Shown: piece after piece, positions 16,543 to 62,850 of the stretch
Layout of the letters: each line of letters opens with the position of its first letter
Numbering within the stretch: the first letter of the stretch is position 1
DNA from: Gammaproteobacteria bacterium
GTDB taxonomy: Bacteria; Pseudomonadota; Gammaproteobacteria; SZUA-229
Reading direction: 5' to 3'
DNA: 64,000 bases
NCBI GenBank assembly: GCA_032251315.1
Contig: JAVVEE010000001.1
Coordinates: 50,035-114,034 of the forward strand
Notes under the pieces: model-generated
Seen by the model: only the letters and a program-made list of their open reading frames with translations
The model's database searches: none
What the model was told of the DNA's origin: nothing
Program-made: the position numbers and the translations under genes

Positions 16543-19500
16543 TTATTTCACCGAACTTAATAATTCATTGATGTTCTTCATCAGCTCTTCTTCCTGGAAA
16601 GGCTTACCAAGATATTGATCGACGCCGATTGTTTTAGCTCTCTCTTTATGTTTGATGCCGGTACGTGATGTAATCATAATAATCGGAATCTGCTTCAGCC
16701 TGTCTTCATTACGCATATAGGTTGCCAGCTCGAAGCCGTCCATTTTTGGCATCTCAATGTCCAGCAACATCAGGTCCGGCATCTCTTCCTGCAATTTGTT
16801 AGTGGCATCAACACCATCGGTAGCCAGAATCACTTTCATATTATGACGTTCGAGTATTCTTGCTGTTACCTTACGAATGGTAATCGAATCATCCACCACC
16901 ATAATAGTCGGCTCGGTTTCTACAGCTACCGCTTCATCGGACTCTTCTGTCACCACCTCTTTAAACAGGCTATCACCGATAACCAACGCCGACATTTCCA
17001 GAATCAGAACCACCCGACCATCTGCCAGAATGGTTGCACCGGCGATGCCGCGCACTGCACTGATCTGCATGCCCACCGGCTTGATCACGATCTCGCGACG
17101 CCCCAGTAAATCATCGACATGTAATGCGAAATGCTGATCGCCTACATGCACCAGCAATACCGGAAACAATTGGCCTTCTTCAGCATAGTTCTGTTGATGC
17201 CCAGTTAGCATGAAGCCCAGATGTTTCAGTTCATAATTAACATTATTAAATGCATATTCCAGATCGCCGCTGTCATAGAAGCTCTGCAACTCAGTGCCTG
17301 TAATTCGCACCACCCCTTCGATACTGGCTAGCGGTACAGCGTAAATGTCATCGCCGGCATTAACCAGTAGTGCCTGATTAATTGCCAGCGTTAATGGCAG
17401 CCGAACTTTGAAGCTGGTGCCTTTGCCGCGCTCGGTATCAATTTCAAGCACGCCACCCAGCTGTTTAATTTCACTGTCTACGACATCCATGCCGACACCA
17501 CGACCGGCAAGCTGCGTTACTTCCTCAGCCGTGCTGAAGCCGCTCTTGAGAATAAACTGCAAGACGTCATAATTGCTCAGCTCATTATCTTCTGCCAGCA
17601 AGCCCTGCTTGATGGCTTTTTTTCGAATGGCATCCGCATTAATACCTGAGCCGTCATCTTCAACTTTTACAACAACCGAAGTCCCCTGACGCCCTACTGA
17701 AATCTTAATATTGCCGGCCTCGGACTTGCCCGCAATCAGTCGATCTTTCGGTAACTCAATGCCGTGCGCAACGGCGTTACGCAACATGTGCTCCAATGGA
17801 GCAACCACGCGATCAAGAACGGTGCGATCAAGCTCCTGTTCTTCGCCTATAATTTCAACATTAATTTCTTTGCCCATCTCTCTGGCAGTCTGACGTACGA
17901 TGCGGCGCAAGCGTGTTGACATGCCGCCAAAACGAACCATGCGTGTGCGCATCAGGCCTTCCTGCAGGTCGGTACTGATGCGAGATTCCTGCAGCAACAG
18001 CATTTCTGCATCACCAACAATGTCCGAGAGGATATCTTTAATACTGTCTACGTCACTGGCCGTCTCCGACAAACTTCGCGCCAGCTGCTGCAAGGTGGAG
18101 TAACGATCCATCTCCAGAGGGTCAAAGTTTTCATCATAATCATCCGCTTCCTTTTCGTAACTCGAACGAATTTGAATCTCGGTTTCGATTTCAAGTTTAC
18201 GCAGCTGTTCTTTCAGTCGGATAACGGTCTGGTTTAACTCTTTGAGGTTATAGCCAACATCAGTAATCTGCTTGCCCATGCGAGCATGATGGATATTTAC
18301 TTCACCTGCGTAATTCACCAGATTGTTGAGCAAATCAGCACGCACACGCACCTGCTCCTGAGAGTCCTTGAAATTAACATCAGTAGCACGTTCACCCCAA
18401 TGGGGTTTTTCTTCGCTACGGTCAGACTTTCTTCTTTTCAGCGCCTCTGCATCGGCAGTGCCGGCTATGCCTTTACCGGCCGCAGGGTTCTGCGCCTGAA
18501 TTTCCGGGTTTAGCATCTCTTCAGTCAGCGGCTCATTAACCGCTTCACTCAGCAGATCATCAACTTCGACATCAAAGCGCTCAACAGTGCGTTGCTCAAC
18601 AACTTCCCCACGCATAATCGCTTCGATTCGTTCTACGAGATTACCGGAGGCACTAATGGGCTGGCGCTGCTTAACGTTGCCCAGCATGTTGTTGAGGGCA
18701 TCGAGCGATTCATGCAAAACATCGAAAAAGACTTTATTAGCTTCGATTTTGTGCTCAAAAAGCGCCAGCACCATCGATTCCAGAACATGAGTGAGATCGC
18801 CTACTGGTACCAGAGATGCCATGCGAGCACCCCCTTTCAGGGTATGCATATGGCGTTGCAATTCAATAAGGTTGTCCGTATCCTCTTCATTTTCATGAAG
18901 CTTAATCAAAGTCCCCTCAAGGTCCTCTATCAGTTCCTCGGCCTCTTCCAGAAAGATATCAATCAGATCATCATCGACATCGCCATAGGTATACAGTGTT
19001 TCTGCCGGGGCGTGCTGCACCGGTTTTCCGGTGACTACAGGCTCGCGCTTGGCCTCGGATTGGGTGGGCATTATCTGTGCAGCTGATGGTTGTTGCAATT
19101 GCTGCTGCAATTCATCCTGCACGGCCTTGCTCATCCTATCCAGCAGCACCTTATTTGTTTCCGGCAATTTGTTCGCTTTCAATTGTGCCAGCATTGCTTC
19201 AATCGTTGAAACGACCTCAGCGATAATCTCGACTACAGCATCAGGAATTAATTGACTACTGGCATCCTGCCGTGCCACTGCATATTTTTCACTTACTCCT
19301 GCTATTTCGGCAATCGCTTCAATTTCTGCCGTGCGTGCACTGCCAAACAGGGTATGAAAAGCTCTGATCAGGTCGTTACTCGCCTCCAGTCCCTGCTCGC
19401 CTAAATAATGTTTATTCAGAAGCTCCTTGATTATGCGTAGATGGCTATTGCTCTCATCGTAATAAATCTGGAAGAGCATCGAGTCCATGTTCAGACCCAC

Positions 19501-22263
19501 GTTACTTTCAACTTCATCCTGCTCAGATGACTCGTCAATTTCGATGATAAACCCGTCATCATCATCTTCATCATCCAGTAACGATCCTTCCAGACGAATA
19601 TTAAAATCATCCGTTTCTGAAATATCAAAAACATTGTCTTCACTGGCAAATGCGTCTGTCATTTCCAGCGATATCTCATCGCTGCCGACAGGCTCGATGA
19701 AGGTTATTTTTTCTTCGACATCCATGTCATTGAGCGCATCCAGAAACATTTCATCCTCAGCAGAAATATCACCACTGACCTCCATTACTTCGTCGGTACC
19801 GTAATCCTGTTCGCTGCTGTAATTAACAGGCACCTCTATCGTCGGCGACTGACTTTCTTCTGCGGCAGCCCTGTCGGGCTCATCTACAAGGGATTCTTCT
19901 GCTTCAACTGCCCCGACTGCTTGTCCCTCTGTCAAGGCTACAGCCACGGTCATTAACTGGTATATATTTGCAATCGGTTCACGATTGCCTCGTAATTGCT
20001 CTATCAATTGCGGCACCACAGCCAGCACTTCGTCCAGCAGCGTCAGCAACTCATCGGTCACTTCGATCTTCTTATCCAGAACACGATTCAGCAGGTTTTC
20101 AATTTTCCAGGCAAACTCACCAATCAGTGCGGCACCAATCAGACGCCCACTGCCCTTAAGCGTGTGAAAATTTCTGCGTATAACGGTTAACGATTCTTCA
20201 TCCTGATAATTCTGTTTCCATTTCGGCACATGCTCGTTCAGGGAGTCCATCACTTCAACGGCTTCTTCTATGAATATCTCGACAATTTCTTCATCCGCAT
20301 CTTCACTCAGAATCCCATATTCCTCGTGTTCCACGGCTGCTGTCTTCACGCTCTCGACCGGCTCTGTTGCCGCTGGCAGCTCGTGCTCCGGTTCAGGCTC
20401 AGGTTCCAGCGTTGTCGCCTGCTGCTCAAATTCAAGTTCTGCCGTCGTTGTAATTTCCAGCGCGACTTCAGGTTCGTCACTGTCATCTGTAATCACAACG
20501 GATTCGGCGAGCTCATCTCCATCATTGTCAATGTCTGCAGAGGCCGGCGCGCCATATTGTTTTGTAATCTCGCTTAAATCAGCCTGCGCGCGTTCGCCGG
20601 TCAGCAAGCCCTGGTCTACGCCCGGACGACCTTCTGACAAGGCCTCAAAATAATACTCGATAGAGGTCACTACATCTGCAAGGGTGTCCTGCTCCTGACT
20701 ATCCGGCTGACGATGTTGTGCTTGCAAAGCAATGCGCACATATTTCATCAAGCTTGATATCAGTTTTTCAACGCGTTCTGCTGATAACATCATGGCGACG
20801 CCGCGAACCTCTTCCAGACGTTGCACGACGGTTTCCAGATGACTTTCATCACTACTGCCATTAGCATAAGCAAGAATCGCTTCCTTGGCTTCTACAAAGT
20901 TTTTATGAGCTTCTTCAATAACTGTAACCAGCACTTTCCGATATTCTGAACTGGGAATAACACGCTCTTCATCGTCTTCAGAAACCAGGCCTGATTTGCC
21001 GGCAATGTAGTCATCAAGTTTGGACTCGGCCGCCAGTAAAGCACCGGCAATTTCCAGCACCCGCTGTTCCGAAGCTTCCAATTCACCGCTGATGATTTTT
21101 TCCAGCTCAATACGTTGGTCCAGCACGTTTTGCCTTGTTGACCCAAAACCCAGCATGCCATACGTATCTGCAATTTTTTCGATTTGCTTAACTACAGATG
21201 ATAATTGCTCGACATCTTTATCGCTGCTTTGCATAAAGATTTCCAGCGTATCTTTCACCGTAGTCAGGTCTTCTCTGATGCCCTGGGAAACGGTATCAAA
21301 CAGTTCAGCGTTAATGCCGCCCATGCTGACACTAATCTGTTGTGCAGATGACTTATCTGACAGCAACTCTTCAAGTTTATAAGCCTGTTTGATTTTGCTT
21401 ACGCGGACACCCGTCGAGCGACAGCTGCCCACGTAGTAAAGAATGTTCTTCAGGAGTTCCTGAGACATTTGATCAATAAACCTGTTTTCACCGACATCGA
21501 CCAGTAATTTGATCTGCCGATCAATGGCACCCAATAAGCCTTTTACCGCAATATTGCTCTGTAGATCCTTGTCATCTTCAATGGCTTCCAGCAATGCGCT
21601 GGCTACCATCCAGAAACGCTTGACCGTCTCATCGGCGGTTACCTTTTGCAGTGCAATGAGTACCGCCAGCGTGCGTTTAAGACCGGCACTGTATTTATTG
21701 TTTCGAAGTATATCCAGCAGGCCGAGCTGATAATGGGTGCGCAAACGTTTGGCTTCCCGGGTTAGTTTGCCCGGCTCAATCGCCGTCGCATCAAGGCCCA
21801 GCTCTTCGATATCCACGGCGTTAATGTCCGGCATGAAAAGCACGCTTTCAGATAGCAGTTTTTCCTTGCGCACTGCACGCATATCATTCATCAACGGCAT
21901 CAGAACGATGGGTGCGTCCTGATTCCCGGCCTGCAGCCCTTCCAGATAATCGGGCAATTGCAGCATCGCTCGCATCAGCACATCATAAACATCCTCAGGG
22001 CTTTCGATACGGCCTTCGAGCTGTGCTCTGGCGGTCTGCTCCATCTCTTCAGCCAGCATTGCCGCGCCGTACACTTCCACCATCTGCAAAGTGCCATACA
22101 CCAGACGCAAGTGTTCGATACACTGTTCCAGCGCCGTGGTGTTTGCATTATCCTCGATATAGTCGGACAGCGAAGTCTGGGCGTCGTGCAGAACAGCATC
22201 TAACTGTTTCTTTACCCAGCTCAGAGAGTTGTATTGTACTGTGCCTTCCAGTTTCATTATCAA
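16543..22263 (-). CDS. chpA: ChpA-type hybrid histidine kinase (CheA homolog with multiple Hpt domains, acidic linker, HATPase_c, CheW-like domain and C-terminal receiver)
   Basis: 1906 aa; several HTLKGS(G)A(R) Hpt motifs; an acidic PEPEPE/DE-rich low-complexity region; kinase G-boxes (…GRGVGMDVV…); C-terminal REC (…VVDDSITIRK…DIEMPKMDGFEL…). Confidence 0.9.
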   Translation of the reverse strand: MIMKLEGTVQYNSLSWVKKQLDAVLHDAQTSLSDYIEDNANTTALEQCIEHLRLVYGTLQMVEVYGAAMLAEEMEQTARAQLEGRIESPEDVYDVLMRAMLQLPDYLEGLQAGNQDAPIVLMPLMNDMRAVRKEKLLSESVLFMPDINAVDIEELGLDATAIEPGKLTREAKRLRTHYQLGLLDILRNNKYSAGLKRTLAVLIALQKVTADETVKRFWMVASALLEAIEDDKDLQSNIAVKGLLGAIDRQIKLLVDVGENRFIDQMSQELLKNILYYVGSCRSTGVRVSKIKQAYKLEELLSDKSSAQQISVSMGGINAELFDTVSQGIREDLTTVKDTLEIFMQSSDKDVEQLSSVVKQIEKIADTYGMLGFGSTRQNVLDQRIELEKIISGELEASEQRVLEIAGALLAAESKLDDYIAGKSGLVSEDDEERVIPSSEYRKVLVTVIEEAHKNFVEAKEAILAYANGSSDESHLETVVQRLEEVRGVAMMLSAERVEKLISSLMKYVRIALQAQHRQPDSQEQDTLADVVTSIEYYFEALSEGRPGVDQGLLTGERAQADLSEITKQYGAPASADIDNDGDELAESVVITDDSDEPEVALEITTTAELEFEQQATTLEPEPEPEHELPAATEPVESVKTAAVEHEEYGILSEDADEEIVEIFIEEAVEVMDSLNEHVPKWKQNYQDEESLTVIRRNFHTLKGSGRLIGAALIGEFAWKIENLLNRVLDKKIEVTDELLTLLDEVLAVVPQLIEQLRGNREPIANIYQLMTVAVALTEGQAVGAVEAEESLVDEPDRAAAEESQSPTIEVPVNYSSEQDYGTDEVMEVSGDISAEDEMFLDALNDMDVEEKITFIEPVGSDEISLEMTDAFASEDNVFDISETDDFNIRLEGSLLDDEDDDDGFIIEIDESSEQDEVESNVGLNMDSMLFQIYYDESNSHLRIIKELLNKHYLGEQGLEASNDLIRAFHTLFGSARTAEIEAIAEIAGVSEKYAVARQDASSQLIPDAVVEIIAEVVSTIEAMLAQLKANKLPETNKVLLDRMSKAVQDELQQQLQQPSAAQIMPTQSEAKREPVVTGKPVQHAPAETLYTYGDVDDDLIDIFLEEAEELIEDLEGTLIKLHENEEDTDNLIELQRHMHTLKGGARMASLVPVGDLTHVLESMVLALFEHKIEANKVFFDVLHESLDALNNMLGNVKQRQPISASGNLVERIEAIMRGEVVEQRTVERFDVEVDDLLSEAVNEPLTEEMLNPEIQAQNPAAGKGIAGTADAEALKRRKSDRSEEKPHWGERATDVNFKDSQEQVRVRADLLNNLVNYAGEVNIHHARMGKQITDVGYNLKELNQTVIRLKEQLRKLEIETEIQIRSSYEKEADDYDENFDPLEMDRYSTLQQLARSLSETASDVDSIKDILSDIVGDAEMLLLQESRISTDLQEGLMRTRMVRFGGMSTRLRRIVRQTAREMGKEINVEIIGEEQELDRTVLDRVVAPLEHMLRNAVAHGIELPKDRLIAGKSEAGNIKISVGRQGTSVVVKVEDDGSGINADAIRKKAIKQGLLAEDNELSNYDVLQFILKSGFSTAEEVTQLAGRGVGMDVVDSEIKQLGGVLEIDTERGKGTSFKVRLPLTLAINQALLVNAGDDIYAVPLASIEGVVRITGTELQSFYDSGDLEYAFNNVNYELKHLGFMLTGHQQNYAEEGQLFPVLLVHVGDQHFALHVDDLLGRREIVIKPVGMQISAVRGIAGATILADGRVVLILEMSALVIGDSLFKEVVTEESDEAVAVETEPTIMVVDDSITIRKVTARILERHNMKVILATDGVDATNKLQEEMPDLMLLDIEMPKMDGFELATYMRNEDRLKQIPIIMITSRTGIKHKERAKTIGVDQYLGKPFQEEELMKNINELLSSVK

Positions 22264-54918: not shown

Positions 54919-55896
54919 ATGAAAATTCTTATCGTCGGTGGCGCCGGTTACATCGGTTCACACATGGTTAAAAAACTCGCCCTGGCCGGGCACGAAGTTG
55001 TCACCCTTGATAACTTGAGCCGTGGTTATGAAGATGCGGTGAAATATGGTGAATTTGTCCACGGTAATCTGGGTGATAAAGATCTGCTGAATACCTTGTT
55101 CAGTAAGCACCTATTTGATGCCGTGATGCATTTTGCCGCTTTCATAGAGGTGGGTGAATCGGTGACCGAGCCCGGCATGTATTACCACAACAATGTCTGC
55201 AACACTCAGGTACTGCTCGATGCCATGGTGAGCCATGACCTCGAGCACTTCGTCTTCTCTTCTACCGCGGCCATCTTTGGCGAGCCGCAGTACACGCCGA
55301 TTGACGAAGCCCATCCGAAAAACCCCATCAATCCCTACGGCCGCAGCAAGTTGATGGTGGAGCAGATGCTGGAAGATTACGACCGCGCCTACGGCCTGAA
55401 ATCCACCTGCCTGCGCTACTTCAATGCCGCCGGTGCCGACCCGGAAGGTGAACTCGGTGAGCGCCACAACCCTGAATCACACCTCATCCCGTTGATCCTG
55501 CAGGCCGCTTCCGGGCGACGCGAGGCCATCAGTATTTTTGGCCGGGATTACCCCACTGAGGATGGCACCTGTGTTCGTGATTACGTCCACATCAACGATC
55601 TCTGCGATGCCCATTCCCTGGCGCTGGACAAGATGCAGAAATCCGGAGACAGCGCCCGCTACAACCTGGGTAACGGCAAAGGTTTTTCAGTGCAGCAGGT
55701 GGTCGACACGGTTAAACGTGTCGCCAATAAAGAGTTTAAAGTGATCCACGCCGAAAGGCGCGCCGGCGATCCCGCCGTTCTGGTTGCCGACTCAACGCTG
55801 GCCAAACAGGCGCTGGGCTGGACACCCCGCTTCGACCGACTGGAAACCATTATTGAAGCCGCATGGCAGTGGGAAACCACATTTTTTACCCGCTAG
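54919..55896 (+). CDS. galE: UDP-glucose 4-epimerase
   Basis: 325 aa; MKILIVGGAGYIGSH Rossmann; YxxxK region; typical GalE length. Confidence 0.85.
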   Translation: MKILIVGGAGYIGSHMVKKLALAGHEVVTLDNLSRGYEDAVKYGEFVHGNLGDKDLLNTLFSKHLFDAVMHFAAFIEVGESVTEPGMYYHNNVCNTQVLLDAMVSHDLEHFVFSSTAAIFGEPQYTPIDEAHPKNPINPYGRSKLMVEQMLEDYDRAYGLKSTCLRYFNAAGADPEGELGERHNPESHLIPLILQAASGRREAISIFGRDYPTEDGTCVRDYVHINDLCDAHSLALDKMQKSGDSARYNLGNGKGFSVQQVVDTVKRVANKEFKVIHAERRAGDPAVLVADSTLAKQALGWTPRFDRLETIIEAAWQWETTFFTR

Positions 55897-55994
55897 ATTT
55901 CATATGCTTACTGAGTTCAAACCCCTCTCAACCAGCCCTTAACTACCCTCCCCCTAAGCATTATCGCGATAACATCCATAGTAATTATCATTAA

Positions 55995-56027
55995 CAGCTG
56001 CCTCTCTCGCTCCGGCAGCTGTTTCTC
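55995..56027 (+). terminator. Hairpin CAGCTGCC-N11-GGCAGCTG + TTTCTC, about 100 nt downstream of galE
   Basis: 8-bp perfect inverted repeat followed by a T-rich tract. Confidence 0.35.
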
Positions 56028-56357
56028 ATAAACTCAAGTCCCGGAAATTTCACGCCTCTTTATGCGAACATGGTTATACATGAGCATCAGCTCACTCAAG
56101 TTATTCAATATCTCTCGGAAGAATACTTCGCTTTTGCAGTTTTTAAATAGCTGGGAAGTTACTACCATCGCTCATTAAAAAGCCCCTTTCTTTTTGCTGC
56201 TATAAACCTGCTTTAAAAATTGGCCCACTATTTTTCAGCATGAATTTTTTTAAATCTTCAGCTTTTTTACAAAAGTTTACATCAGCGACATTCTGATAAT
56301 GCAATATTACTAATACCAATTAACCGAAAACCCCCTGCTATTAAACACAATATTATT

Positions 56358-57116
56358 ATGCAAAACAGACAAATTTCTGCCATTAAAGAATCACATAACC
56401 TCCTTTCTATTAATTCAGAGTGGATTGGACGCGAATATTGCGAAAACTGTCATTTTTGCAAGTTGTTTTCTGCTGAGCTTTCAGATTCCGATGATGCAAA
56501 TACAACACTACAGCCGGCAGACCATTTTCTATTCCCCTCCGGCTCGGTAATTTACAGCAACAACACTCATCGAAAATTTATTTACACCATAAGGCATGGC
56601 ATGGTTAAGCTGACCAATAATGCTCGCAACGGTGGAAGTAGAATTGTACGCTTACTGGGCCCCGGTGACTCCATTGGTCTTGAGTTACTGTATGGTAATA
56701 GCCACTATCACCATACGGCTGTTGCAGTTGATAATGTTGATGTTTGTCGAATCCCTGTTTCGATAATCAAAAAAACCATAGCCGAACGGCCCTCTATTTA
56801 CACCCAGATTAGCCACCAGTTACAGAACCAGCTGGATCTTGCCGATCAATGGATAGTCGCATTAGGAACCGGCACAGCAAGACAGAGGGTTGCTCATTTA
56901 CTGCTATTACTGGATGGATTCTTTGCTGATAAAAATGGTGCATTCACCTTGATCAACCGTGAAGACATGGCCGCGATTATCGGCACGACGATGGAGACCG
57001 TTAGCCGTATGATTGCCGAATTCAAACGCCAGAATATTCTGTGCAAGTACAAATCAAAAAACAGCCTTTATACCTGTAATACGTCCATGCTAAGGGCGAT
57101 CACACTTCACGCCTGA
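56358..57116 (+). CDS. Crp/Fnr-family transcriptional regulator (FNR/NnrR-like; N-terminal Cys cluster)
   Basis: 252 aa; N-terminal CENCHFC (C-x2-C-x2-C); cNMP-binding-like beta-roll; C-terminal HTH (…TMETVSRMIAEFKRQNIL…). Confidence 0.75.
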   Translation: MQNRQISAIKESHNLLSINSEWIGREYCENCHFCKLFSAELSDSDDANTTLQPADHFLFPSGSVIYSNNTHRKFIYTIRHGMVKLTNNARNGGSRIVRLLGPGDSIGLELLYGNSHYHHTAVAVDNVDVCRIPVSIIKKTIAERPSIYTQISHQLQNQLDLADQWIVALGTGTARQRVAHLLLLLDGFFADKNGAFTLINREDMAAIIGTTMETVSRMIAEFKRQNILCKYKSKNSLYTCNTSMLRAITLHA

Positions 57117-57196
57117 TTTTAAAAGAAAAACCAGTACCAGCTATGCGCAATCGACCCTGTAATATAGCGACTGCATATTTGCTACACTGCGTGACT

Positions 57197-58042
57197 TTAT
57201 CTATCCGGCACTAAGGCATTACGTAGATCATTCACAATACGGTGTATATTGTGGCAACGTGCGCATACACTAACGGCAATTTCTCCCATCAGCTGCTGAC
57301 TCTCTTTTACCCGACCTTCACTAATTCCTGATTCGAGAACATCAAGCCTCTGCTGCGTCGCCTTGCCCAGTATGCGTTCATGGGGATACATCTCTTTTCC
57401 ATGGCAATGACTACAGCTCCCACCAAGACTCTGTAACTGGTCGGCAAGATTCTGACGGGCCACCAATGCCTTGCTCTTGTGACCATCGTCCAACGCAATC
57501 AGAATTTGATTAACCGAGATCGATAATACCTCCATGCTATCTTCATAACTCTGCTCGCCACCATTGAGATTTTTAACCCTGATGTCCCCGTAATGCGGCG
57601 AACGGTATATGGCCGTCACGATGGGTTGATAGCTGTGGTGACAATCATCACAGGTACGCTGGATCATTTTTAGTGTTTTCGTCGTCCGATAAGCATCCTT
57701 TTTTTCAGCAAACATTTTGAGTTCCGGCAGCAGTCTGGGCTTGATCTCATCCTCCCACTCGGGCACCATCTCGGTGATTTTGCTGTAATCCTTCTCCAGA
57801 CGACTTATCCATTTATCCATTTCAGTCCAATCCCCCAGCTCTGCATATTCGCCAATGGCCTGCATTTCCCGGCGCAGTGCGAACATGGTGTGCAGCCATA
57901 CATGACGCTTGCTGGCGGGCTTGTACCATTGCTCCAGTGATGCTGGTGGCATTTCAAGATTAACAGAATCGGTGCCGCTGGCGGACGCAATGCCCATACC
58001 TGCCATAAGGAAAAGGAACAAAAAAACAGAGTTATAGTTCAT
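57197..58042 (-). CDS. Secreted tri-heme c-type cytochrome (three CxxCH motifs), uncharacterised
   Basis: 281 aa; signal peptide MNYNSVFLFLFLMAGMGIASASG; heme motifs CDDCH, CSHCH, CARCH. Confidence 0.7.
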   Translation of the reverse strand: MNYNSVFLFLFLMAGMGIASASGTDSVNLEMPPASLEQWYKPASKRHVWLHTMFALRREMQAIGEYAELGDWTEMDKWISRLEKDYSKITEMVPEWEDEIKPRLLPELKMFAEKKDAYRTTKTLKMIQRTCDDCHHSYQPIVTAIYRSPHYGDIRVKNLNGGEQSYEDSMEVLSISVNQILIALDDGHKSKALVARQNLADQLQSLGGSCSHCHGKEMYPHERILGKATQQRLDVLESGISEGRVKESQQLMGEIAVSVCARCHNIHRIVNDLRNALVPDR

Positions 58043-58160
58043 CTCATTAGTCCGTTATTATTAAGCAGTCAGACTATCATAAATCTTTCTATACTTATAA
58101 AAAGTAATTGTATTTACCTATTTCGACCTTGCTGAACAGCTGCGGCTATTACTCGTTTTT

Positions 58161-58176
58161 TCTGATGTAGATCATT
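58161..58176. promoter_or_regulatory. FNR/NnrR-type box cTGATgtagATCAt in the divergent cytochrome/hemerythrin promoter region
   Basis: Matches TTGAT-N4-ATCAA at 8/10 positions; centred about 65 nt upstream of the hemerythrin ATG. Confidence 0.5.
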
Positions 58177-58232
58177 AGTGTTTCCGCCTTATATTGTTAT
58201 GGTTCTTACTGTTAAATTAGGAGTTCACTGAA

Positions 58233-58670
58233 ATGCACATTAAAAAACTCATGTCGCAGGATCACAAAGACTGTGATCTGCTTTTTGCTAAAGCCGAAAC
58301 TGCCGTCTCTTCCGAGGACTGGGCAGCGGCGACACAAACATTCAATGAATTTATAGAGGCCATGGAGTCTCATCTTAGCTTCGAAGAAAAGGTGCTCTTC
58401 CCCGCCTTTGAAGAGGCTACCGGCATCACCATGGGCCCTACTGAAATGATGCGCATGGAACACGACCAGATGCGCGTGCTGCTCATTGAAATGCGCGATG
58501 CACTGGATCGTCAGCACAGTGATGACTATCTGGGTATTGCCGATACCATGCTGATCATGATGGAGCAACACAACTTGAAGGAGGAGCAAATTCTCTACAA
58601 TCTGATGGATCAGCGGCTCCCGAAAGAGGGTCACTGGCAACAGCGTTTCCAGGAGTGGCAGAACCTTTGA
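58233..58670 (+). CDS. Hemerythrin-like (HHE cation-binding) domain protein
   Basis: 145 aa; His/Glu ligand pattern (H…HLSFEE…MEHDQM…), typical of NO-responsive hemerythrin-domain proteins. Confidence 0.65.
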   Translation: MHIKKLMSQDHKDCDLLFAKAETAVSSEDWAAATQTFNEFIEAMESHLSFEEKVLFPAFEEATGITMGPTEMMRMEHDQMRVLLIEMRDALDRQHSDDYLGIADTMLIMMEQHNLKEEQILYNLMDQRLPKEGHWQQRFQEWQNL

Positions 58671-58954
58671 TGTCCGGCGAAATATTACTGGATGTGAGCG
58701 AGCTGGAACCTCCTGAACCGCTGACATTAACCCTTGAGTCGGCTGCTTCATTACAGCCCGGTCAGTACCTGCGCATGTTGCATCGGCGTGAACCCTGCAT
58801 GCTGTACGGCAATCTCGATGAACAACACTTCAAATATATTCAACGCAAAGGCACCGTCTCCGCGGTTGAAGTTTTTATCTGGCGCGAGCAGGATCAGGAG
58901 GCGGCGTCCGCCGTGCAATCGATAATCGATACGCCGATCGAAGCCCCCACTTAA
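58670..58954 (+). CDS. DUF2249 domain protein
   Basis: About 94 aa starting at ATG overlapping the hemerythrin stop (ATGA); DUF2249-like; frequently co-located with hemerythrin and NnrS. Confidence 0.55.
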   Translation: MSGEILLDVSELEPPEPLTLTLESAASLQPGQYLRMLHRREPCMLYGNLDEQHFKYIQRKGTVSAVEVFIWREQDQEAASAVQSIIDTPIEAPT

Positions 58955-58985
58955 TCGCTATTATCAAACCTCCTCTCAGCATCAT

Positions 58986-60293
58986 ATGCACGCCGATCTT
59001 TCACTCCAGCAGTCACCGCCCTTTTCCGTACCCGCACGCTTCCTGATTAGCGCACCGCTGTTTGGTCTTCTCGCTGCACTGGTCATGCTCTGGCACGGCC
59101 CGGAGATGCTGAGCAGCCGCTGGACATCCGAGCTGCTGGCTGTCACCCATTTTCTGACATTAGGCTTTCTGGCCATGAGCATGTTGGGCGCCATGATGCA
59201 GCTGATGCCGGTACTGATGGGCATGATGATTCCACGACCGGTCTTTTTCAGCGGCATCATTCACGCCTCCCTGTTTCTAGGCAGCACCAGTCTGGGCCTG
59301 GCCTGGTTACTGCAGATCAATGCGCTGTTTATGATTGCCATGGCATCACTGCTGTTTTCGTTTAGCGTATTTATCGTGATGGCAGCGGAGCGCTTATTAC
59401 GCACCCCCAGTCGACACGCAACACGCACCCTGATGCTGCTGGCATTACTGTCTCTGTCAATCACCGCCGGCCTCGGACTCTATCTGGCCATGAGTTACAG
59501 CGATGCTGCATTCCCGCTTGCCCGGAAGCTCACCGATCTGCACTTAAGCTGGGGGCTGCTGGGCTGGGTAGGCCTGCTGATCATGGCTGTGGCCTATCAG
59601 GTGATTCCGATGTTCCAGATTACCAATCCATATCCGCTCATACTCCAGCGCTCACTGGGCTGGCTGATATTTTTCGCCCTGATCACTCTGAGCCTGATTC
59701 AGATCTGGCCGCTGGCAATATTGAAAATGTTCAGTCACTTACTGCTGGCGATCTGCCTGCTGACATTTGCATTCACCACTTTCTGGCTGCTACATACCAG
59801 GCGCCGCCAACTCCCCGATCTGACCCTGAATTTCTGGCGACTGGCCATGATCAGCCTTGCTCTGACTGCCTTGATCGGCTTATCGTTCAGCTTCTCCGCC
59901 ATGAAACCACCGGCATTGTTACTCGGTGTGTTAGTCATTCACGGTTTTGCCATGACCACGGTAAACGGCATGATGTATAAAATCATGCCTTTTTTGATCT
60001 GGCTACACCTCAGCAGCCACAACAAAACCTTGCGCGATAGCAACCAGCGAACTTCCCAGGTAAAAGTCCCGCACATGCGCAAGATCATTCCTGAAGCAGC
60101 CGGCCTGTGGCAATTTCGCGCTCACCTGGCCAGTCTGATATTATTATTTCTCACCGCCCTGTGGCCGCAGTGGTTCTTTTATCCCGCGACAGTATTGTTT
60201 GTAATCGCCCAGGCGCTACTGCTGTTCAATCTATCCAGCGCCGTGCATCTTTATCGTGCAAAACTCGCTGAATTTGCCAGCGGCCAATTTTAG
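58986..60293 (+). CDS. nnrS: NnrS-family heme-copper membrane protein (NO-response)
   Basis: 435 aa; about 12 TM with conserved His residues; typical NnrS size and topology; downstream of hemerythrin-DUF2249. Confidence 0.7.
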   Translation: MHADLSLQQSPPFSVPARFLISAPLFGLLAALVMLWHGPEMLSSRWTSELLAVTHFLTLGFLAMSMLGAMMQLMPVLMGMMIPRPVFFSGIIHASLFLGSTSLGLAWLLQINALFMIAMASLLFSFSVFIVMAAERLLRTPSRHATRTLMLLALLSLSITAGLGLYLAMSYSDAAFPLARKLTDLHLSWGLLGWVGLLIMAVAYQVIPMFQITNPYPLILQRSLGWLIFFALITLSLIQIWPLAILKMFSHLLLAICLLTFAFTTFWLLHTRRRQLPDLTLNFWRLAMISLALTALIGLSFSFSAMKPPALLLGVLVIHGFAMTTVNGMMYKIMPFLIWLHLSSHNKTLRDSNQRTSQVKVPHMRKIIPEAAGLWQFRAHLASLILLFLTALWPQWFFYPATVLFVIAQALLLFNLSSAVHLYRAKLAEFASGQF

Positions 60294-60388
60294 TTATACC
60301 CTCATTACCGCTTTGCCCGGGCAGGGCGGTTATTGCAAAATACTTCTTTTAACCTTTTTGGCCATTCAAGCTTCTACTAAACCGGAGA

Positions 60389-61000
60389 ATGTATTCAGTG
60401 TCAGATCACTTTAATGAAAAAGCAAAAGACTGGGATGCCAACGAAATGGTTAACCAGCTCTCAGCGGCAATTGGGCCCTTAATCTTAAATGAGATCCCTC
60501 TTGATGATCGCATGCAGGTGATGGACTTCGGCGCCGGCACCGGCTTGATCAGCTCTCACATCGCCCCTTTTGTACGTAAAATTACAGCTGTCGATATCTC
60601 CGAAGCCATGCTGGAAAAGCTGGTCGCCAAGCCGACATTACAGGGCAAAGTTGAGGCGGTATGTCAGGACATTATAGCTGAACCACTGGCGGCACAATTT
60701 GATCTGATCATAAGTGCAATGGCCCTGCACCACGTAGAAGATACCGCGAAACTCATTCAGGCATTTTACGATCACCTGACTCCAGGGGCCAGGATTGCGC
60801 TGGCCGACCTCGACTCGGAAGACGGCGGCTTTCACCCGCAGGATGTTGAAGGTGTGTTCCACCATGGTTTTGACCGTGACGAACTAAAAAAATTATTAGA
60901 GGGGCACGGCTTCAAGGATGTTCGTTTTTTGACTGCGCATACCGTTGTTAAAAATGATAGCCGCTACCCGATCTTTCTTGTTCTCGCCACAAAACTATAA
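60389..61000 (+). CDS. Class I SAM-dependent methyltransferase
   Basis: 203 aa; motif I VMDFGAGTGLIS; GTG start. Confidence 0.75.
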   Translation: MYSVSDHFNEKAKDWDANEMVNQLSAAIGPLILNEIPLDDRMQVMDFGAGTGLISSHIAPFVRKITAVDISEAMLEKLVAKPTLQGKVEAVCQDIIAEPLAAQFDLIISAMALHHVEDTAKLIQAFYDHLTPGARIALADLDSEDGGFHPQDVEGVFHHGFDRDELKKLLEGHGFKDVRFLTAHTVVKNDSRYPIFLVLATKL

Positions 61001-61144
61001 TGTCTATTGAGTCTGCCCTGAGGCAGACTCATCAGGTAATAACCACTGCAATAACATACTAATTCATTCTACCTCTTAAAATTAAATACCTGCATAATCA
61101 GGACGAATCGCATCGATGTGGTTGCTTAAGCGTATAATAGGCGG

Positions 61145-61420
61145 ATGCAATCCGAACCTGAAAAACTTTTAAAAAGACATCAGCAGCTGACCCATACCGA
61201 TATGGCGAAAGTTACTTCGCATGTACAGCGCACGCAGGACGACTGGATTCTAAATACAGTGATCATCGAGGGCTGTGATGTCCCCTTCAAATACAAACGA
61301 AAAAAACGGTACAGAAATCTCAGTGGTCAGCTCGTCAACCTGACCTATTATCCTGCTGAAGAAACTGTTGCCGGTCTGGATTTCGAATTCATGAAAGTGG
61401 TCAGAATAAAAATTGCCTAG
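61145..61420 (+). CDS. Hypothetical small basic protein (91 aa)
   Basis: ORF only; no recognisable motif. Confidence 0.35.
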   Translation: MQSEPEKLLKRHQQLTHTDMAKVTSHVQRTQDDWILNTVIIEGCDVPFKYKRKKRYRNLSGQLVNLTYYPAEETVAGLDFEFMKVVRIKIA

Positions 61421-61508
61421 TAAAAAAGCCATATAGGCAGCTGTTGCCTTCTTTCGTTCAAGCCACCATAATCAAAAATATCTAAATCATCACCTATATA
61501 TCAAATCC

Positions 61509-62177
61509 ATGAAATATTCCACTTTTATTACCCTGCTTGCAGTTATCAGCCTTAGCGCCTGCCAGCCAAATTCTGAGACACCCAGCCAGGTGACAAAAAA
61601 CTACTGGCAGGCCCTCAAGAATAACGACCTTGTCGCAGCATCAAAACTTGTTACAAAAGACAGCCAGAGCGACTTAAGCCACTACTTCAAACTGCCGCAT
61701 GAAGAAAAAATCCCGCTAGATGAAATCTATCTGGGCGCTGAACGCGCTACGGTCACGACCATCATCAGGTCTGAATCCACAACCATCGACACAGCTCCAC
61801 CCGGGAGTCTGGCCGTTCTTCCCGAAATAACTTTCGAAACCATACTGATTCTGGAAGACGGCCAGTGGAAAGTCGATGTCACTCGCACTCAGACTCCGGT
61901 CCTTCAAAAGCCTGACGAACTTTCCCCGGATACGCCATCATCAGATCTGGATACTGCACCGCTCAACGAAGCATTGCAGGAAAGCGCGGAGATGCTCAAC
62001 CAGTTTATGCGCGAGGGCTCCAGGGAAATGAGCGAGACCTTCCTCGAGGGCATGAATAAAATGAATGAGGCCCTGCGCGAAGCCATCGACAAAATGAAAC
62101 AGCGGCGCGAACAGCAGGAGCCGGCCCAGCCACCCACCAATGAAAACAATGACGCCGAGAATGAAGGTGTGATCTAA
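61509..62177 (+). CDS. Lipoprotein (DUF4878-like) with an acidic or coiled C-terminal half
   Basis: Signal peptide with lipobox LSAC; 222 aa. Confidence 0.6.
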   Translation: MKYSTFITLLAVISLSACQPNSETPSQVTKNYWQALKNNDLVAASKLVTKDSQSDLSHYFKLPHEEKIPLDEIYLGAERATVTTIIRSESTTIDTAPPGSLAVLPEITFETILILEDGQWKVDVTRTQTPVLQKPDELSPDTPSSDLDTAPLNEALQESAEMLNQFMREGSREMSETFLEGMNKMNEALREAIDKMKQRREQQEPAQPPTNENNDAENEGVI

Positions 62178-62271
62178 CGCTGACTGCTGCGGCATCGGCT
62201 ATCATTTTCGAATTAATACCCTGTCGCTTTTACTATAATAGCCGCCTTTAAATTTAAGCTACTACCCATTT

Positions 62272-62850
62272 ATGAGCATCAAGAAAACATTACACCGCCG
62301 CAGCGAATCAAAATGCGAGCTGTGTGGCGCTACAGAAAACCTGAGCATTTACGAAACCCTGGCCACGTCCAAAGACAATGCCGATGAATGCGTGCTTGTC
62401 TGTGCAAGCTGTCGCGATCAGATCGAGAACCCCGAGCGTATTGATGTCAATCACTGGCGCTGCCTCAACGACAGCATGTGGAGTCAGATTCCGGCGGTAC
62501 AGGTCATGGCCTGGCGTATGCTGACGCGACTGAGCGCCGAAGGCTGGCCGCAGGATCTGCTCGACATGCTCTATCTGGATGATGCGACCCTCGCCTGGGC
62601 AAAAACCGGTAAAGCTGAAAATAATGACAGCGCTGTGCCGCATGTCGACAGCAACGGCGCGATACTGGCGGCGGGCGATACGGTGACCTTGATCAAGGAT
62701 CTCGATGTAAAGGGCGCCAACTTTACCGCCAAGCGCGGCACTGCGGTACGAAACATTTCACTGGTCGCTGATAACCCTGAGCATATCGAAGGTCGTGTGG
62801 AAGGTCAGCGAATAGTCATACTGGCCCGGTTCGTCAAGAAATCTAACTAG
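62272..62850 (+). CDS. phnA: PhnA-family protein (zinc-ribbon N-terminus plus PhnA domain)
   Basis: 192 aa; CELCGA…CASC zinc ribbon; C-terminal PhnA-like domain. Confidence 0.7.
   Translation: MSIKKTLHRRSESKCELCGATENLSIYETLATSKDNADECVLVCASCRDQIENPERIDVNHWRCLNDSMWSQIPAVQVMAWRMLTRLSAEGWPQDLLDMLYLDDATLAWAKTGKAENNDSAVPHVDSNGAILAAGDTVTLIKDLDVKGANFTAKRGTAVRNISLVADNPEHIEGRVEGQRIVILARFVKKSN

What the first reader, a model, noticed from the sequence alone, without database searches (positions are those of the whole stretch)
56358..60293. Putative NO-response gene island: FNR-like regulator, secreted triheme cytochrome c, hemerythrin-DUF2249-NnrS operon with an FNR-type box
A Crp/Fnr regulator with an N-terminal C-x2-C-x2-C cluster precedes a divergent pair: an uncharacterised 281-aa cytochrome with three CxxCH motifs, and a hemerythrin-DUF2249-nnrS operon. 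The intergenic region carries cTGATgtagATCAt (58162-58175). A 460-bp AT-rich non-coding stretch lies upstream of the regulator. The combination resembles denitrification or NO-stress modules, but the triheme cytochrome partner is not a standard component.
Basis: partly seen in the sequence, partly recalled or inferred. Interest (0 to 1): 0.55.

Follow-up and report, generated by a model that had tools for sequence, protein, structure and literature searches.

The report
FNR-controlled nitric-oxide accessory gene cluster

Summary
All ORFs, the three CxxCH motifs, the C-x2-C-x2-C cluster, the 461-bp AT-rich spacer and the box are at the stated coordinates.

- **Box:** alone it is at chance level. 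It is nevertheless conserved in 16 orthologous promoters, always 22 nt upstream of a conserved -10, which places it at about -41.5, the class II FNR position.
- **"nnrS":** this label is wrong. The 435-aa protein has no Pfam or NCBIfam hit and no similarity to a genuine NnrS. It has a 12-helix heme-copper-oxidase subunit I fold that lacks the catalytic histidine pair. Its family is large, and members are fused to DUF2249 or sit beside real nnrS genes.
- **Hemerythrin:** a stand-alone YtfE/RIC-like di-iron domain.
- **Cytochrome:** a secreted protein of an unnamed family with three invariant heme sites. In 41 of 76 genomes it lies within 6 kb of nirS, nor or heme d1 genes.
- **Regulator:** it has cysteines at all four FNR cluster positions and the FNR DNA-reading motif. 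It is adjacent only in the closest relatives; elsewhere its family sits among housekeeping genes.

Verdict: a denitrification/NO-stress accessory module, probably under FNR-type control. It is built from uncharacterised variants of known kinds and is of moderate interest.

The parts
55897..56357 (.). AT-rich non-coding spacer between galE and the regulator gene. It holds a galE terminator-like hairpin (55995-56021, CAGCTGCC...GGCAGCTG then TTTCTC) and the regulator's promoter region, including an ATCAG-N7-CTGAT inverted repeat at 56281-56297.
   Evidence: No ORF of 50 aa or more. GC 0.35-0.36. Sequence read. The proximal ~250 bp are conserved with L001, which carries a 145-bp GC-rich insertion. 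No Rfam match.
56358..57116 (+). Crp/Fnr-family regulator, 252 aa. It has an FNR-like cysteine set (C28, C31, C34, C130) and the recognition-helix motif E213-T-V-S216-R217.
   Evidence: Pfam cNMP_binding 54 bits and HTH_Crp_2 47 bits. The best NCBIfam models are FnrL, FixK and Fnr, all far below cutoff. PDB hits include A. fischeri FNR with the alignment starting at residue 27. BLASTP against E. coli FNR gives 24% identity and aligns all four cluster cysteines. Family alignment A3.
57197..58042 (-). Secreted all-helical tri-heme c-type cytochrome, 281 aa. CxxCH motifs at 131-135, 210-214 and 260-264. The N-terminal domain is a class II (c'/c556/b562-like) four-helix bundle.
   Evidence: Across 74 family members, the three CxxCH motifs plus H51, M53, M92, M170 and H267 are invariant. 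AF2 model: pLDDT 73, all helical. Foldseek finds a cytochrome b562 bundle, TM about 0.7 over about 105 residues, and no whole-protein match. RefSeq names are 'hypothetical protein' or 'cytochrome c'.
58076..58081 (-). Candidate -10 element (TATGAT on the minus strand) of the cytochrome promoter, about 35 nt upstream of the cytochrome ATG.
   Evidence: A TATAAT/TATAAG-like block is conserved at the same place in the orthologous intergenic regions. The assignment is an inference; no TSS data exist.
58162..58175 (+). FNR-type box CTGATGTAGATCAT. The family consensus is yTGAyNTArATCAT, preceded by a conserved TTCTT.
   Evidence: Present in all 16 orthologous divergent intergenic regions, while the flanking DNA is not conserved. 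It is the only intergenic match of YTGAYN4ATCAW in the window.
58198..58203 (+). Predicted -10 hexamer TATGGT (TATGAT in most relatives) of the hemerythrin operon promoter. The predicted TSS is near 58210, so the box centre lies at about -41.5.
   Evidence: The 22-nt gap between the box and the -10 is invariant in all 16 loci, including L016 and L018, which have 5' leaders about 95 nt longer. The TSS is inferred.
58233..58670 (+). Stand-alone hemerythrin-like di-iron protein, 145 aa. Its ligand pattern is H11, H47-xxx-E51, H77, H112-xxx-E116, the YtfE/RIC type. It has no ScdA_N domain.
   Evidence: PF01814, 68 bits. Partial NCBIfam YtfE/RIC hits lie far below cutoff. The nearest solved structure is E. 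coli YtfE (5fnn, 7bhc), E 1.5e-7, aligned over the HxxxE...H motifs.
58670..58954 (+). DUF2249 protein. It is 94 aa from the ATG at 58670, which overlaps the hemerythrin stop as TGATG. The ORF opens at a GTG at 58655.
   Evidence: PF10006, 44.6 bits. Overlap read. Distant relatives P0381 and P0383 have DUF2249 fused to the N-terminus of the membrane protein.
58986..60293 (+). 12-TM membrane protein, 435 aa, with the heme-copper oxidase subunit I fold (an 'HCO-homology' protein). It is not NnrS. Family-invariant residues are H55 (TM2) and H186 (TM6), with H341 at 92%. There is no TM7 His pair.
   Evidence: No Pfam or NCBIfam family. AF2 pLDDT 86.9. Foldseek: CcoN 9g6b_A E 3.8e-5, 8smr_E TM 0.65, NorB 4xyd_A E 5e-4. 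2280 cluster representatives. His conservation. Probability against NnrS 0.6-1.6%. The S. meliloti pSymA homolog scores probability 97.6%.
60307..60330 (+). 10-bp GC-rich hairpin just after the membrane-protein stop codon. It is a possible weak operon terminator with no U-run.
   Evidence: the centroid keeps only this stem; z-score of the whole stretch 0.1. Sequence. The terminator scan did not call it.

Best explanation
The region is a low-oxygen/nitrogen-oxide accessory module with two divergent transcription units.

(1) The hemerythrin-DUF2249-membrane-protein operon. It is transcribed from a class II Crp/Fnr-type promoter. A dimeric FNR-family activator binds the box centred about 41.5 bp upstream of the start site and recruits RNA polymerase when oxygen is low, or when NO is present.

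The operon encodes three proteins. The first is a cytoplasmic YtfE/RIC-like di-iron protein, which would bind NO or O2 or repair damaged iron centres. The second is a small DUF2249 adaptor. The third is a 12-helix membrane protein with the heme-copper-oxidase/NO-reductase fold. This protein keeps the histidines of TM2 and TM6 but lacks the CuB/FeB His pair. It therefore probably binds heme and is not a canonical oxidase or NO reductase. The DUF2249 protein most likely docks on its cytoplasmic face.

(2) A secreted tri-heme, probably six-coordinate, class II-like cytochrome c. It acts as a periplasmic electron carrier of the nitrite/NO reduction branch.

The neighbouring regulator is the clade's FNR-like sensor, with a putative Cys4 iron-sulfur cluster. 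It is the most likely, though not proven, reader of the box.

Shown: the genes, domains, fold, conservation, synteny, and box/-10 geometry. Inferred: the inducing signal, which regulator binds, cofactor content, and the biochemical activity.
For: - **Box and promoter:** 16 loci keep the box, a 22-nt gap and the -10, with non-conserved flanks.
- **Translational coupling:** TGATG overlap and short gaps within the operon.
- **Triad conservation:** it is kept in 17 of the 80 genome loci plus L087, and in distant members L088, L089 and L091.
- **DUF2249-membrane fusions:**
- **HCO fold:**
- **Histidine pattern:**
- **Hemerythrin:** aligns with the YtfE di-iron motifs.
- **Cytochrome context:** neighbours are NirS/N/F, NirDLGH, NirE, NirJ, NirC, NirT-like and NorCB proteins. 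Perfect FNR boxes lie upstream of cytochrome operons in other genomes.
- **Cytochrome ligands:** invariant Met/His candidate sixth ligands.
- **Regulator:** cysteines and the E-xx-SR motif.
- **S. meliloti pSymA:** a homolog flanked by DUF2249 genes lies between nirK-nnrS and norB.
Against: - There are no expression, binding or cofactor data.
- The window itself holds no nir or nor genes. The rest is housekeeping.
- The regulator is adjacent only in the closest relatives, and its family lies elsewhere in other genomes. Another Crp/Fnr paralogue (DNR/NnrR-type) could therefore read the box.
- The third N-terminal cysteine is not conserved across the regulator family.
- The box is not at a fixed distance from the cytochrome promoter, so co-regulation of the cytochrome is unproven.
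- 35 of 76 cytochrome loci show no denitrification gene within 6 kb.
- Sequence-level homology to NorB is not significant (hhalign probability 3%). The superfamily assignment rests on a predicted structure.
Confidence: 0.6

Rival explanations
1. The module handles oxygen, not NO. The hemerythrin binds or buffers O2 under microoxia and works with the oxidase-fold membrane protein and the cytochrome in microaerobic respiration or O2 sensing. FNR control simply reflects low O2.
For: - Hemerythrin domains classically bind O2 (established knowledge).
- The promoter is FNR-type.
- One distant triad lies beside heme A synthase, COX1 and SCO1.
- The fold matches cbb3 oxidase best.
Against: - The membrane protein lacks the TM7 His pair needed for a CuB site.
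- The hemerythrin aligns with YtfE/RIC (four His, two Glu) rather than with O2 carriers.
- Recurrent neighbours are nirS, nor, nnrS and HPP genes.
Confidence: 0.17
2. There is no functional island. A general regulator gene, a cytochrome gene and the hemerythrin operon are adjacent by accident in a variable region downstream of galE, and each works independently.
For: - The cytochrome occurs without the triad in about 60 of 80 loci, and the triad occurs without the cytochrome in distant genomes.
- The regulator family sits in unrelated contexts.
- The region downstream of galE varies between relatives.
- The box has no fixed distance to the cytochrome promoter.
Against: - The divergent cytochrome/triad arrangement persists in 16 loci down to about 61% cytochrome identity. 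A co-directional version, cytochrome-TM-hemerythrin-hemerythrin-DUF2249-membrane-cd1, exists in L031 and L043.
- In about 20 other loci a different hemerythrin gene immediately precedes the cytochrome.
- Both units are independently linked to nir and nor genes.
Confidence: 0.15
3. One reading: a hemerythrin-DUF2249-nnrS operon, that is, a member of the NnrS family of heme/copper membrane proteins that protect against NO.
For: The general resemblance is real: a 12-TM His-bearing membrane protein in an N-oxide context. One family member gives a 6.3-bit, E = 7 trace hit to PF05940. From my recollection of Pei et al. 2014, NnrS is itself a distant heme-copper-oxidase homolog.
Against: - No PF05940 hit for the window protein or eight of nine relatives tested. 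A true NnrS scores 380 bits.
- hhalign probability is 1.6% and 0.6%.
- Genuine nnrS genes coexist with a homolog of this protein in the same loci, which shows two separate families.
Confidence: 0.03

Closest known systems
FNR / ANR / FnrL oxygen-sensing regulators (Crp/Fnr superfamily)
   Same: Same two-domain architecture. Cysteines sit at the positions of FNR C20, C23, C29 and C122. The E-xx-SR DNA-reading motif is present. The target looks like TTGAT-N4-ATCAA centred at -41.5.
   Different: Only 24% identity to E. coli FNR. NCBIfam Fnr scores 56 bits against a cutoff of 228. Cysteine spacing is C-x2-C-x2-C. The third cysteine shifts position within the family. Iron-sulfur binding is untested.
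NnrS (PF05940), the heme- and copper-containing membrane protein of denitrifiers
   Same: A 12-TM, histidine-bearing membrane protein found in denitrification/NO-stress gene neighbourhoods. It probably has a comparable protective or accessory role.
   Different: No detectable sequence relationship. Both occur side by side in S. meliloti pSymA and in L091.
Catalytic subunit I of heme-copper oxidases and NO reductases (CcoN, NorB), and the 'HCO homology' families of Pei, Li, Kinch & Grishin 2014 (Protein Sci 23:1220; cited through PMC11218638, not readable here)
   Same: 12-TM fold with TM-scores of 0.55-0.67 over the whole length. His residues in TM2 and TM6 align in register with the NorB heme b and FeB ligands. 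The association with DUF2249 has been noted before (PMC11218638).
   Different: No PF00115 hit. No TM7 His-His pair, and no conserved TM10 pair at the canonical depth. It is therefore not a canonical oxidase or NOR, and no partner subunit II or NorC gene is present.
YtfE/RIC (repair of iron centres) di-iron proteins, and NorA/DnrN
   Same: H...HxxxE...H...HxxxE di-iron motif. The best solved relative is E. coli YtfE. The NO-stress context is shared.
   Different: It lacks the N-terminal ScdA_N domain. NCBIfam RIC models score 30-35 bits against cutoffs of 205-254.
Thermus thermophilus DrpA (DUF2249) and the haloarchaeal DUF2249 genes induced in denitrification
   Same: The same Pfam domain, in anaerobic nitrate/denitrification regulons under a Crp-family master regulator (PMC6282519, PMC11218638).
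   Different: DrpA pairs with DrpB, not with an HCO-fold membrane protein, and was proposed to be a nitrate sensor. Here fusion to the membrane protein argues for a subunit or adaptor role.
Class II cytochromes c (cytochrome c', c556) and cytochrome b562
   Same: A four-helix bundle with CxxCH at the end of the last helix. An invariant Met in the first helix resembles c556/b562 His-Met ligation.
   Different: There are three hemes in one 281-aa chain. The two extra heme sites sit on helix-hairpin repeats. PF01322 scores 22 bits, below its 26.5 cutoff. No solved structure matches the whole protein.

Membership tests
FNR-type iron-sulfur oxygen sensors | Crp/Fnr two-domain architecture (cNMP-binding-like beta-roll plus C-terminal HTH) | tested here: met
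   PF00027 54 bits and PF13545 47 bits.
FNR-type iron-sulfur oxygen sensors | Three N-terminal cysteines plus one central cysteine that ligate a [4Fe-4S] cluster (E. coli C20, C23, C29, C122) | tested here: inconclusive
C28, C31 and C130 are invariant in the family. C34 is found only in the window subclade, while most members have a Cys about 10 residues upstream instead. The spacing differs from FNR.
FNR-type iron-sulfur oxygen sensors | E-xx-SR motif in the recognition helix, which reads TTGAT | tested here: met
   E213-T-V-S216-R217 aligns with FNR E209-T-I-S212-R213.
FNR-type iron-sulfur oxygen sensors | Score above the curated Fnr/FnrL/FixK model cutoffs | tested here: not met
   FnrL 66.7 bits against 300; Fnr 56 against 228; FixK 57 against 300.
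FNR-type iron-sulfur oxygen sensors | O2-labile iron-sulfur cluster and O2-dependent DNA binding | not testable with these tools
   Needs biochemistry.
Class II FNR-dependent promoter | Inverted-repeat TTGAT-N4-ATCAA-like site centred near -41.5, replacing the -35 | tested here: met
   The box-to-(-10) gap is 22 nt in 16 of 16 loci, which puts the centre about 41-42 nt from the inferred TSS. The TSS itself is inferred. The window box has 2 mismatches to the consensus.
NnrS (PF05940) | Match to the NnrS profile, or similarity to a genuine NnrS | tested here: not met
   No hit for the window protein. hhalign probability is 1.6% and 0.6% against S. meliloti NnrS, which itself scores 380 bits on PF05940.
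Heme-copper oxidase / NOR superfamily, subunit I | 12-TM fold with three four-helix units | tested here: met
   AF2 model with pLDDT 86.9 and 12 long helices. Foldseek gives probability 1.00 to CcoN, NorB and CyoB, with TM-scores of 0.54-0.67. This rests on a predicted structure.
Heme-copper oxidase / NOR superfamily, subunit I | Six canonical His ligands (TM2, TM6, TM7 x2, TM10 x2) | tested here: not met
   The well-conserved histidines are H55 (TM2) and H186 (TM6), both 100%, and H341 (92%). H93 (82%) and H380 (76%) are partly conserved. TM7 has no His.
Heme-copper oxidase / NOR superfamily, subunit I | Match to PF00115, or significant profile similarity to NorB | tested here: not met
   No PF00115 hit. 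hhalign against NorB gives probability 3%, E 0.014.
Hemerythrin/HHE di-iron domain (PF01814) | Profile match and H...HxxxE...H...HxxxE ligands | tested here: met
   68.2 bits against a cutoff of 25.3. H11, H47, E51, H77, H112 and E116 are visible in the translation.
YtfE/RIC | ScdA_N domain plus di-iron domain, and a score above the equivalog cutoff | tested here: not met
   34.7 bits against 254, and 30.1 against 204.7. Only residues 31-89 match, and there is no N-terminal domain.
DUF2249 (PF10006) | Profile match | tested here: met
   44.6 bits against a cutoff of 29.5.
Class II cytochrome c (cytochrome c', PF01322) | Profile match above the gathering score | tested here: not met
   22 bits against 26.5 for the window protein. 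Most relatives carry a precomputed PF01322 hit, but it is marked faint for the one relative whose strength is given.
Class II cytochrome c (cytochrome c', PF01322) | Four-helix bundle with CxxCH at the C-terminal end of helix 4 | tested here: met
   In the model, helices 43-69, 72-92, 104-113 and 117-138 end in C131-xx-C134-H135. The b562/cb562 match has TM about 0.7.
Class II cytochrome c (cytochrome c', PF01322) | Five-coordinate, NO-binding heme (c' proper) | tested here: inconclusive
   Invariant M53, M92, M170, H51 and H267 suggest six-coordinate hemes. Coordination itself cannot be tested here.
c-type cytochrome, exported | CxxCH motifs and a Sec signal peptide | tested here: met
   Three invariant CxxCH motifs. 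The hydrophobic leader and the A-x-A site were read from the sequence and are conserved in homologs. No signal-peptide predictor was available.

The most novel reading that the evidence does not exclude
The hemerythrin-DUF2249-HCO-fold triad is an uncharacterised, widespread membrane system (2280 cluster representatives, no Pfam family) that carries out its own chemistry on NO or O2. One possibility is a non-canonical NO-reducing or NO-sensing heme/di-iron complex, in which the cytoplasmic di-iron protein and a degenerate oxidase scaffold share the work. The tri-heme class II cytochrome would be its dedicated periplasmic electron donor. This would be a new branch of nitrogen-oxide respiration or detoxification, alongside NOR, NnrS and RIC.
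Probability: 0.18. Interest if true: 0.7.

Novelty: new variant of a known kind. Interest (0 to 1): 0.4.

Why it matters
Denitrification and NO detoxification control N2O and NO fluxes in marine sediments and symbioses. Several genes that travel with nir and nor clusters still have no assigned function. This locus brings together three such unknowns:
- a tri-heme class II-type cytochrome found in Sedimenticola, tubeworm and lucinid symbionts and many uncultured sulfur-oxidiser-like gammaproteobacteria;
- a DUF2249 protein;
- an oxidase-fold membrane protein family that is abundant in metagenomes and easily mislabelled as NnrS.

The locus also supplies a clean, conserved FNR-type promoter. This gives concrete experimental handles. 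Homologs exist in cultured Sedimenticola selenatireducens (the cytochrome) and in Sinorhizobium meliloti 1021 pSymA (the membrane protein plus DUF2249 genes). It also corrects an annotation trap. It is not a new principle of biology.

Tried and rejected
- **Box by count alone:** not significant, so conservation was used instead.
- **Rfam scan of 55000-61500:** nothing found.
- **Consensus promoter/terminator scan:** below shuffle expectation and did not find the relevant promoters.
- **Whole-cytochrome searches:** the sequence and fold searches of the PDB found no homolog.
- **Sequence-level link of the membrane protein to NorB:** not significant (probability 3%). It was kept only as a register check on the structural match.
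- **Pei et al. 2014 (PMC4243994):** could not be read and is cited only through PMC11218638 and my recollection.
- **Literature search for a tri-heme cytochrome in nirS clusters:** nothing relevant found.
- **One box serving both divergent promoters:** rejected as unsupported, because the distance from box to cytochrome start varies from about 80 to more than 170 nt between loci.
- **Regulator plus spacer as a recent insertion unique to this genome:** weakened. L087 (cytochrome 74% identical) has the same arrangement, and L081 has the regulator in the same galE-proximal region.
- **PLSDB annotation of pSymA:** empty, so the genes were identified from ORFs and Pfam.

Full report
**What is in the sequence**

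- a Crp/Fnr regulator, 56358-57116(+);
- a convergent 281-aa cytochrome gene, 57197-58042(-);
- divergent from the cytochrome, three tightly packed genes on the + strand: hemerythrin (58233-58670), DUF2249, and a 435-aa membrane protein (58986-60293).

The DUF2249 ORF opens at 58655. Its likely ATG at 58670 overlaps the hemerythrin stop as TGATG.

Pfam confirms cNMP_binding + HTH_Crp_2, Hemerythrin and DUF2249. The 461 bp upstream of the regulator have no ORF and a GC content of 0.35-0.36. The box CTGATGTAGATCAT is at 58162-58175.

The rest of the window is housekeeping: type IV pilus, Chp chemosensory, type II secretion, pyr, met and galE genes. It contains no nir or nor genes. Exact matches identify the source as a 152,576-bp contig of an uncultured gammaproteobacterial MAG, with locus tags RQ936_005xx.

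**The box**

Counted on its own it means nothing. TTGATN4ATCAA with up to two mismatches occurs 46 times in the window against 35.6 expected.

A scan of 185,579 species genomes with a cytochrome alignment returned 80 loci. A further locus, L087, came from a contig look-up. Sixteen of these 81 loci have the same divergent cytochrome/hemerythrin arrangement.

In all sixteen, the intergenic DNA is otherwise divergent but contains three conserved elements:
- the box yTGAyNTArATCAT, preceded by TTCTT;
- a gap of exactly 22 nt;
- a TATGAT/TATGGT -10 element.

This holds even in L016 and L018, where the leader is about 95 nt longer. The spacing puts the box centre 41-42 nt upstream of the inferred start site (about 58210). 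That is the geometry of class II FNR/CRP-family promoters (established knowledge). The TSS itself is inferred.

The box is also the only intergenic match of the derived consensus in the window. Its distance to the cytochrome gene varies between loci. The cytochrome has its own conserved -10-like block near 58076-58081. The box therefore belongs to the hemerythrin operon, and control of the cytochrome by the box is not shown.

In other genomes, perfect or near-perfect FNR boxes lie upstream of the cytochrome or of a hemerythrin-cytochrome operon. Examples are TTGATTTAGATCAA and TTGACCTTAATCAA.

**The regulator**

It is closest to the FnrL, FixK and Fnr models but far below their cutoffs. Among solved structures, Aliivibrio fischeri FNR matches from residue 27 onward.

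Identity is 24%. C28, C31, C34 and C130 fall on the four cluster ligands C20, C23, C29 and C122, with a 3-residue deletion. The ETVSR motif falls on the ETISR motif that reads TTGAT.

In 19 family members, C28, C31 and C130 are invariant. C34 is confined to the window subclade. Most members instead have a cysteine about 10 residues upstream, and one member has both. An FNR-like Cys4 cluster is therefore plausible but not established.

The regulator is not a fixed part of the module:
- It is adjacent only in the window, L001 and L087, where the cytochrome is at least 74% identical.
- In L002 and L005 galE abuts the cytochrome gene.
- Members that are 55-60% identical sit among unrelated housekeeping genes.

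This looks like the clade's general FNR-type regulator, which happens to lie here.

**The membrane protein is not NnrS**

The evidence against membership in the NnrS family:
- It has no Pfam or NCBIfam hit. Eight of nine relatives also lack any PF05940 hit; the ninth gives 6.3 bits, E = 7.
- I recovered a genuine NnrS from S. meliloti pSymA (PF05940, 380 bits). hhalign of the family profile against it gives probability 1.6% with 24 sequences and 0.6% with 145 sequences.
- The same pSymA region holds a separate 452-aa ORF that does match the family (probability 97.6%, E 3e-12). That ORF is flanked by a DUF2249 gene, a double-DUF2249 gene and a DUF59-like gene, and lies between nirK-nnrS and norB.
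- In L091 a family member lies next to a real nnrS gene.

These are therefore two families with overlapping contexts.

What the protein is:
- The AlphaFold model (pLDDT 86.9, 12 long helices) matches subunit I of cbb3 oxidases, cNOR and bo3 oxidase over its whole length, with Foldseek probability 1.00 and TM-scores of 0.54-0.67.
- Across 145 members, H55 (TM2) and H186 (TM6) are invariant. H341 is 92% conserved, H93 82% and H380 76%. TM7 has no histidine.
- A weak hhalign alignment to NorB places H55 and H186 on the NorB heme b and FeB histidines. It is not significant and is used only as a register check.

The protein is thus an oxidase-fold scaffold without a CuB/FeB site. It fits the 'HCO homology' proteins described by Pei et al. 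2014. I could not read that paper. PMC11218638 summarises it as linking DUF2249 to this superfamily.

The family is large, with 2280 representatives at 50% clustering. Members P0381 and P0383 are DUF2249-membrane fusions, which argues for physical partnership. The hemerythrin-DUF2249-membrane order is kept in distant members: L088 lies next to COX15, COX1 and SCO1 genes, and L089 is followed by an HPP-family gene.

**The hemerythrin**

It is a stand-alone di-iron domain with the pattern H11, H47-xxx-E51, H77, H112-xxx-E116. The nearest solved protein is E. coli YtfE/RIC, aligned over these motifs. It lacks the ScdA_N domain and fails the RIC model cutoffs. YtfE ligand identities are from my own knowledge.

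**The cytochrome**

- 458 relatives were found at E of 1e-3 or better, and 214 genomic matches.
- In 74 sequences spanning roughly 40-90% identity to the window protein, the three CxxCH motifs and H51, M53, M92, M170 and H267 are invariant.
- The leader peptide is conserved. NCBI's 266-aa model starts at Met16 and removes it.
- The model is all-helical. Only a b562-type four-helix bundle finds a structural match, and no solved homolog exists. The window protein scores below the cytochrome c' gathering threshold.
- Internal profile comparison shows that each heme site sits on a similar helix-hairpin-CxxCH unit (probability 68-91%).
- RefSeq calls the Sedimenticola orthologs 'hypothetical protein' or 'cytochrome c'.

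Its neighbours were verified with Pfam. They are:
- cd1 nitrite reductase family proteins;
- NirD/L-type siroheme decarboxylase subunits;
- a NirE-type methylase and a NirJ-like radical SAM protein;
- NirC-like cytochrome, a NapC/NirT-EB_dh fusion and a cupredoxin;
- NorC and NorB.

41 of 76 loci have at least one such gene within 6 kb. In 23 loci a hemerythrin gene is immediately adjacent. The invariant Met and His residues suggest six-coordinate electron-transfer hemes rather than an NO-binding c'-type heme. This is an inference.

**Mechanism proposed**

An FNR-family dimer activates the hemerythrin operon from -41.5 under low O2 and/or NO. The operon supplies a RIC-like di-iron protein, a DUF2249 adaptor and an oxidase-fold heme membrane protein, which act together on the cytoplasmic/membrane side of NO or O2 stress. 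The divergent gene supplies a periplasmic tri-heme electron carrier of the nitrite/NO branch.

Rival readings are listed with their evidence: O2 handling, accidental adjacency, and true NnrS.

**Verdict**

The finding is real and mostly well read. One label is wrong (nnrS), and one component, the regulator, is not a conserved part of the module. The parts are uncharacterised variants of known kinds. The combination is a useful experimental lead rather than a surprise.

Noticed in passing
window 57197-58042 (-): The public annotation of this gene (P0001, RQ936_00555, 266 aa) starts at Met16 and so removes the signal peptide. Homolog alignment supports the 281-aa form with a conserved hydrophobic leader.
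   Followed up: partly
window 56281-56297: An inverted repeat, ATCAG-N7-CTGAT, lies about 60 nt upstream of the regulator ATG. In L001 both arms are kept while the spacer differs (CGACATT against CGAGGCT). It may be an operator. With only two sequences this could be chance.
   Followed up: partly
L001 about 7900-8050 (alignment A4 columns 187-341) against window about 56074: A 145-bp GC-rich insertion in the otherwise AT-rich spacer of the closest relative, absent from the window. It may be a small mobile or repeat element.
   Followed up: no
L086 (S. meliloti pSymA, NC_003037 670000-715000), locus coordinates 17400-20103 (-): An apparent operon of DUF2249, an HCO-fold membrane protein (452 aa), a double-DUF2249 protein (176 aa) and a DUF59-like protein (103 aa). 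It lies between nirK-nnrS and hemN-norB. The PLSDB table holds no annotation for this record.
   Followed up: partly
L002, L003, L005, L006, L011 (cluster 16) and L081 8848-9213: A HopJ-family gene (PF08888) follows the membrane protein in six loci, and in L081 it follows the regulator gene instead. Together with the variable gene content downstream of galE, this suggests a rearrangement-prone galE...hopJ interval.
   Followed up: partly
L007 5404-7179 and relatives (cluster 7, 13 loci): A fusion protein of about 590 aa, joining a NapC/NirT tetraheme cytochrome to an ethylbenzene-dehydrogenase-like (EB_dh) heme domain. It is encoded next to cd1 nitrite reductase and a cupredoxin in the cytochrome's neighbourhood.
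   Followed up: no
L009, L014, L017, L020-L022, L024, L027-L029 and others (cluster 3): A roughly 190-aa hemerythrin with an N-terminal transmembrane segment lies immediately upstream of the tri-heme cytochrome on the same strand and divergent from nirE. This second, independent hemerythrin-cytochrome pairing is not explained.
   Followed up: partly
L088 523-9789: A DUF2249-membrane fusion with its hemerythrin lies beside a heme A synthase (COX15), a 568-aa COX1-family protein with a small upstream ORF, SCO1/SenC and a cytochrome b/ferredoxin fusion. This may be an unusual oxidase or NOR cluster.
   Followed up: no
window 58212-58751 (-): A 179-aa ORF antisense to the hemerythrin gene. Similar antisense ORFs displaced the real gene in my simple ORF caller in L001, L002 and L012. 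It is almost certainly not a gene.
   Followed up: partly
window 60389-62850: Four genes lie downstream of the operon: a class I SAM methyltransferase, a 91-aa ORF, a 222-aa lipoprotein-like ORF with no family, and a YjdM/PhnA zinc-ribbon protein. They are conserved only in the closest relatives (L001, L087). No link to the module is evident.
   Followed up: partly
L053 4971-6116 and L056 6993-8699 (tubeworm-symbiont-type loci): In Lamellibrachia and Escarpia symbiont genomes the cytochrome lies between norCB plus a PSCyt1-type cytochrome and a 568-aa multiheme 'Cytochrome_cB' protein. This is a different, cytochrome-rich context.
   Followed up: no
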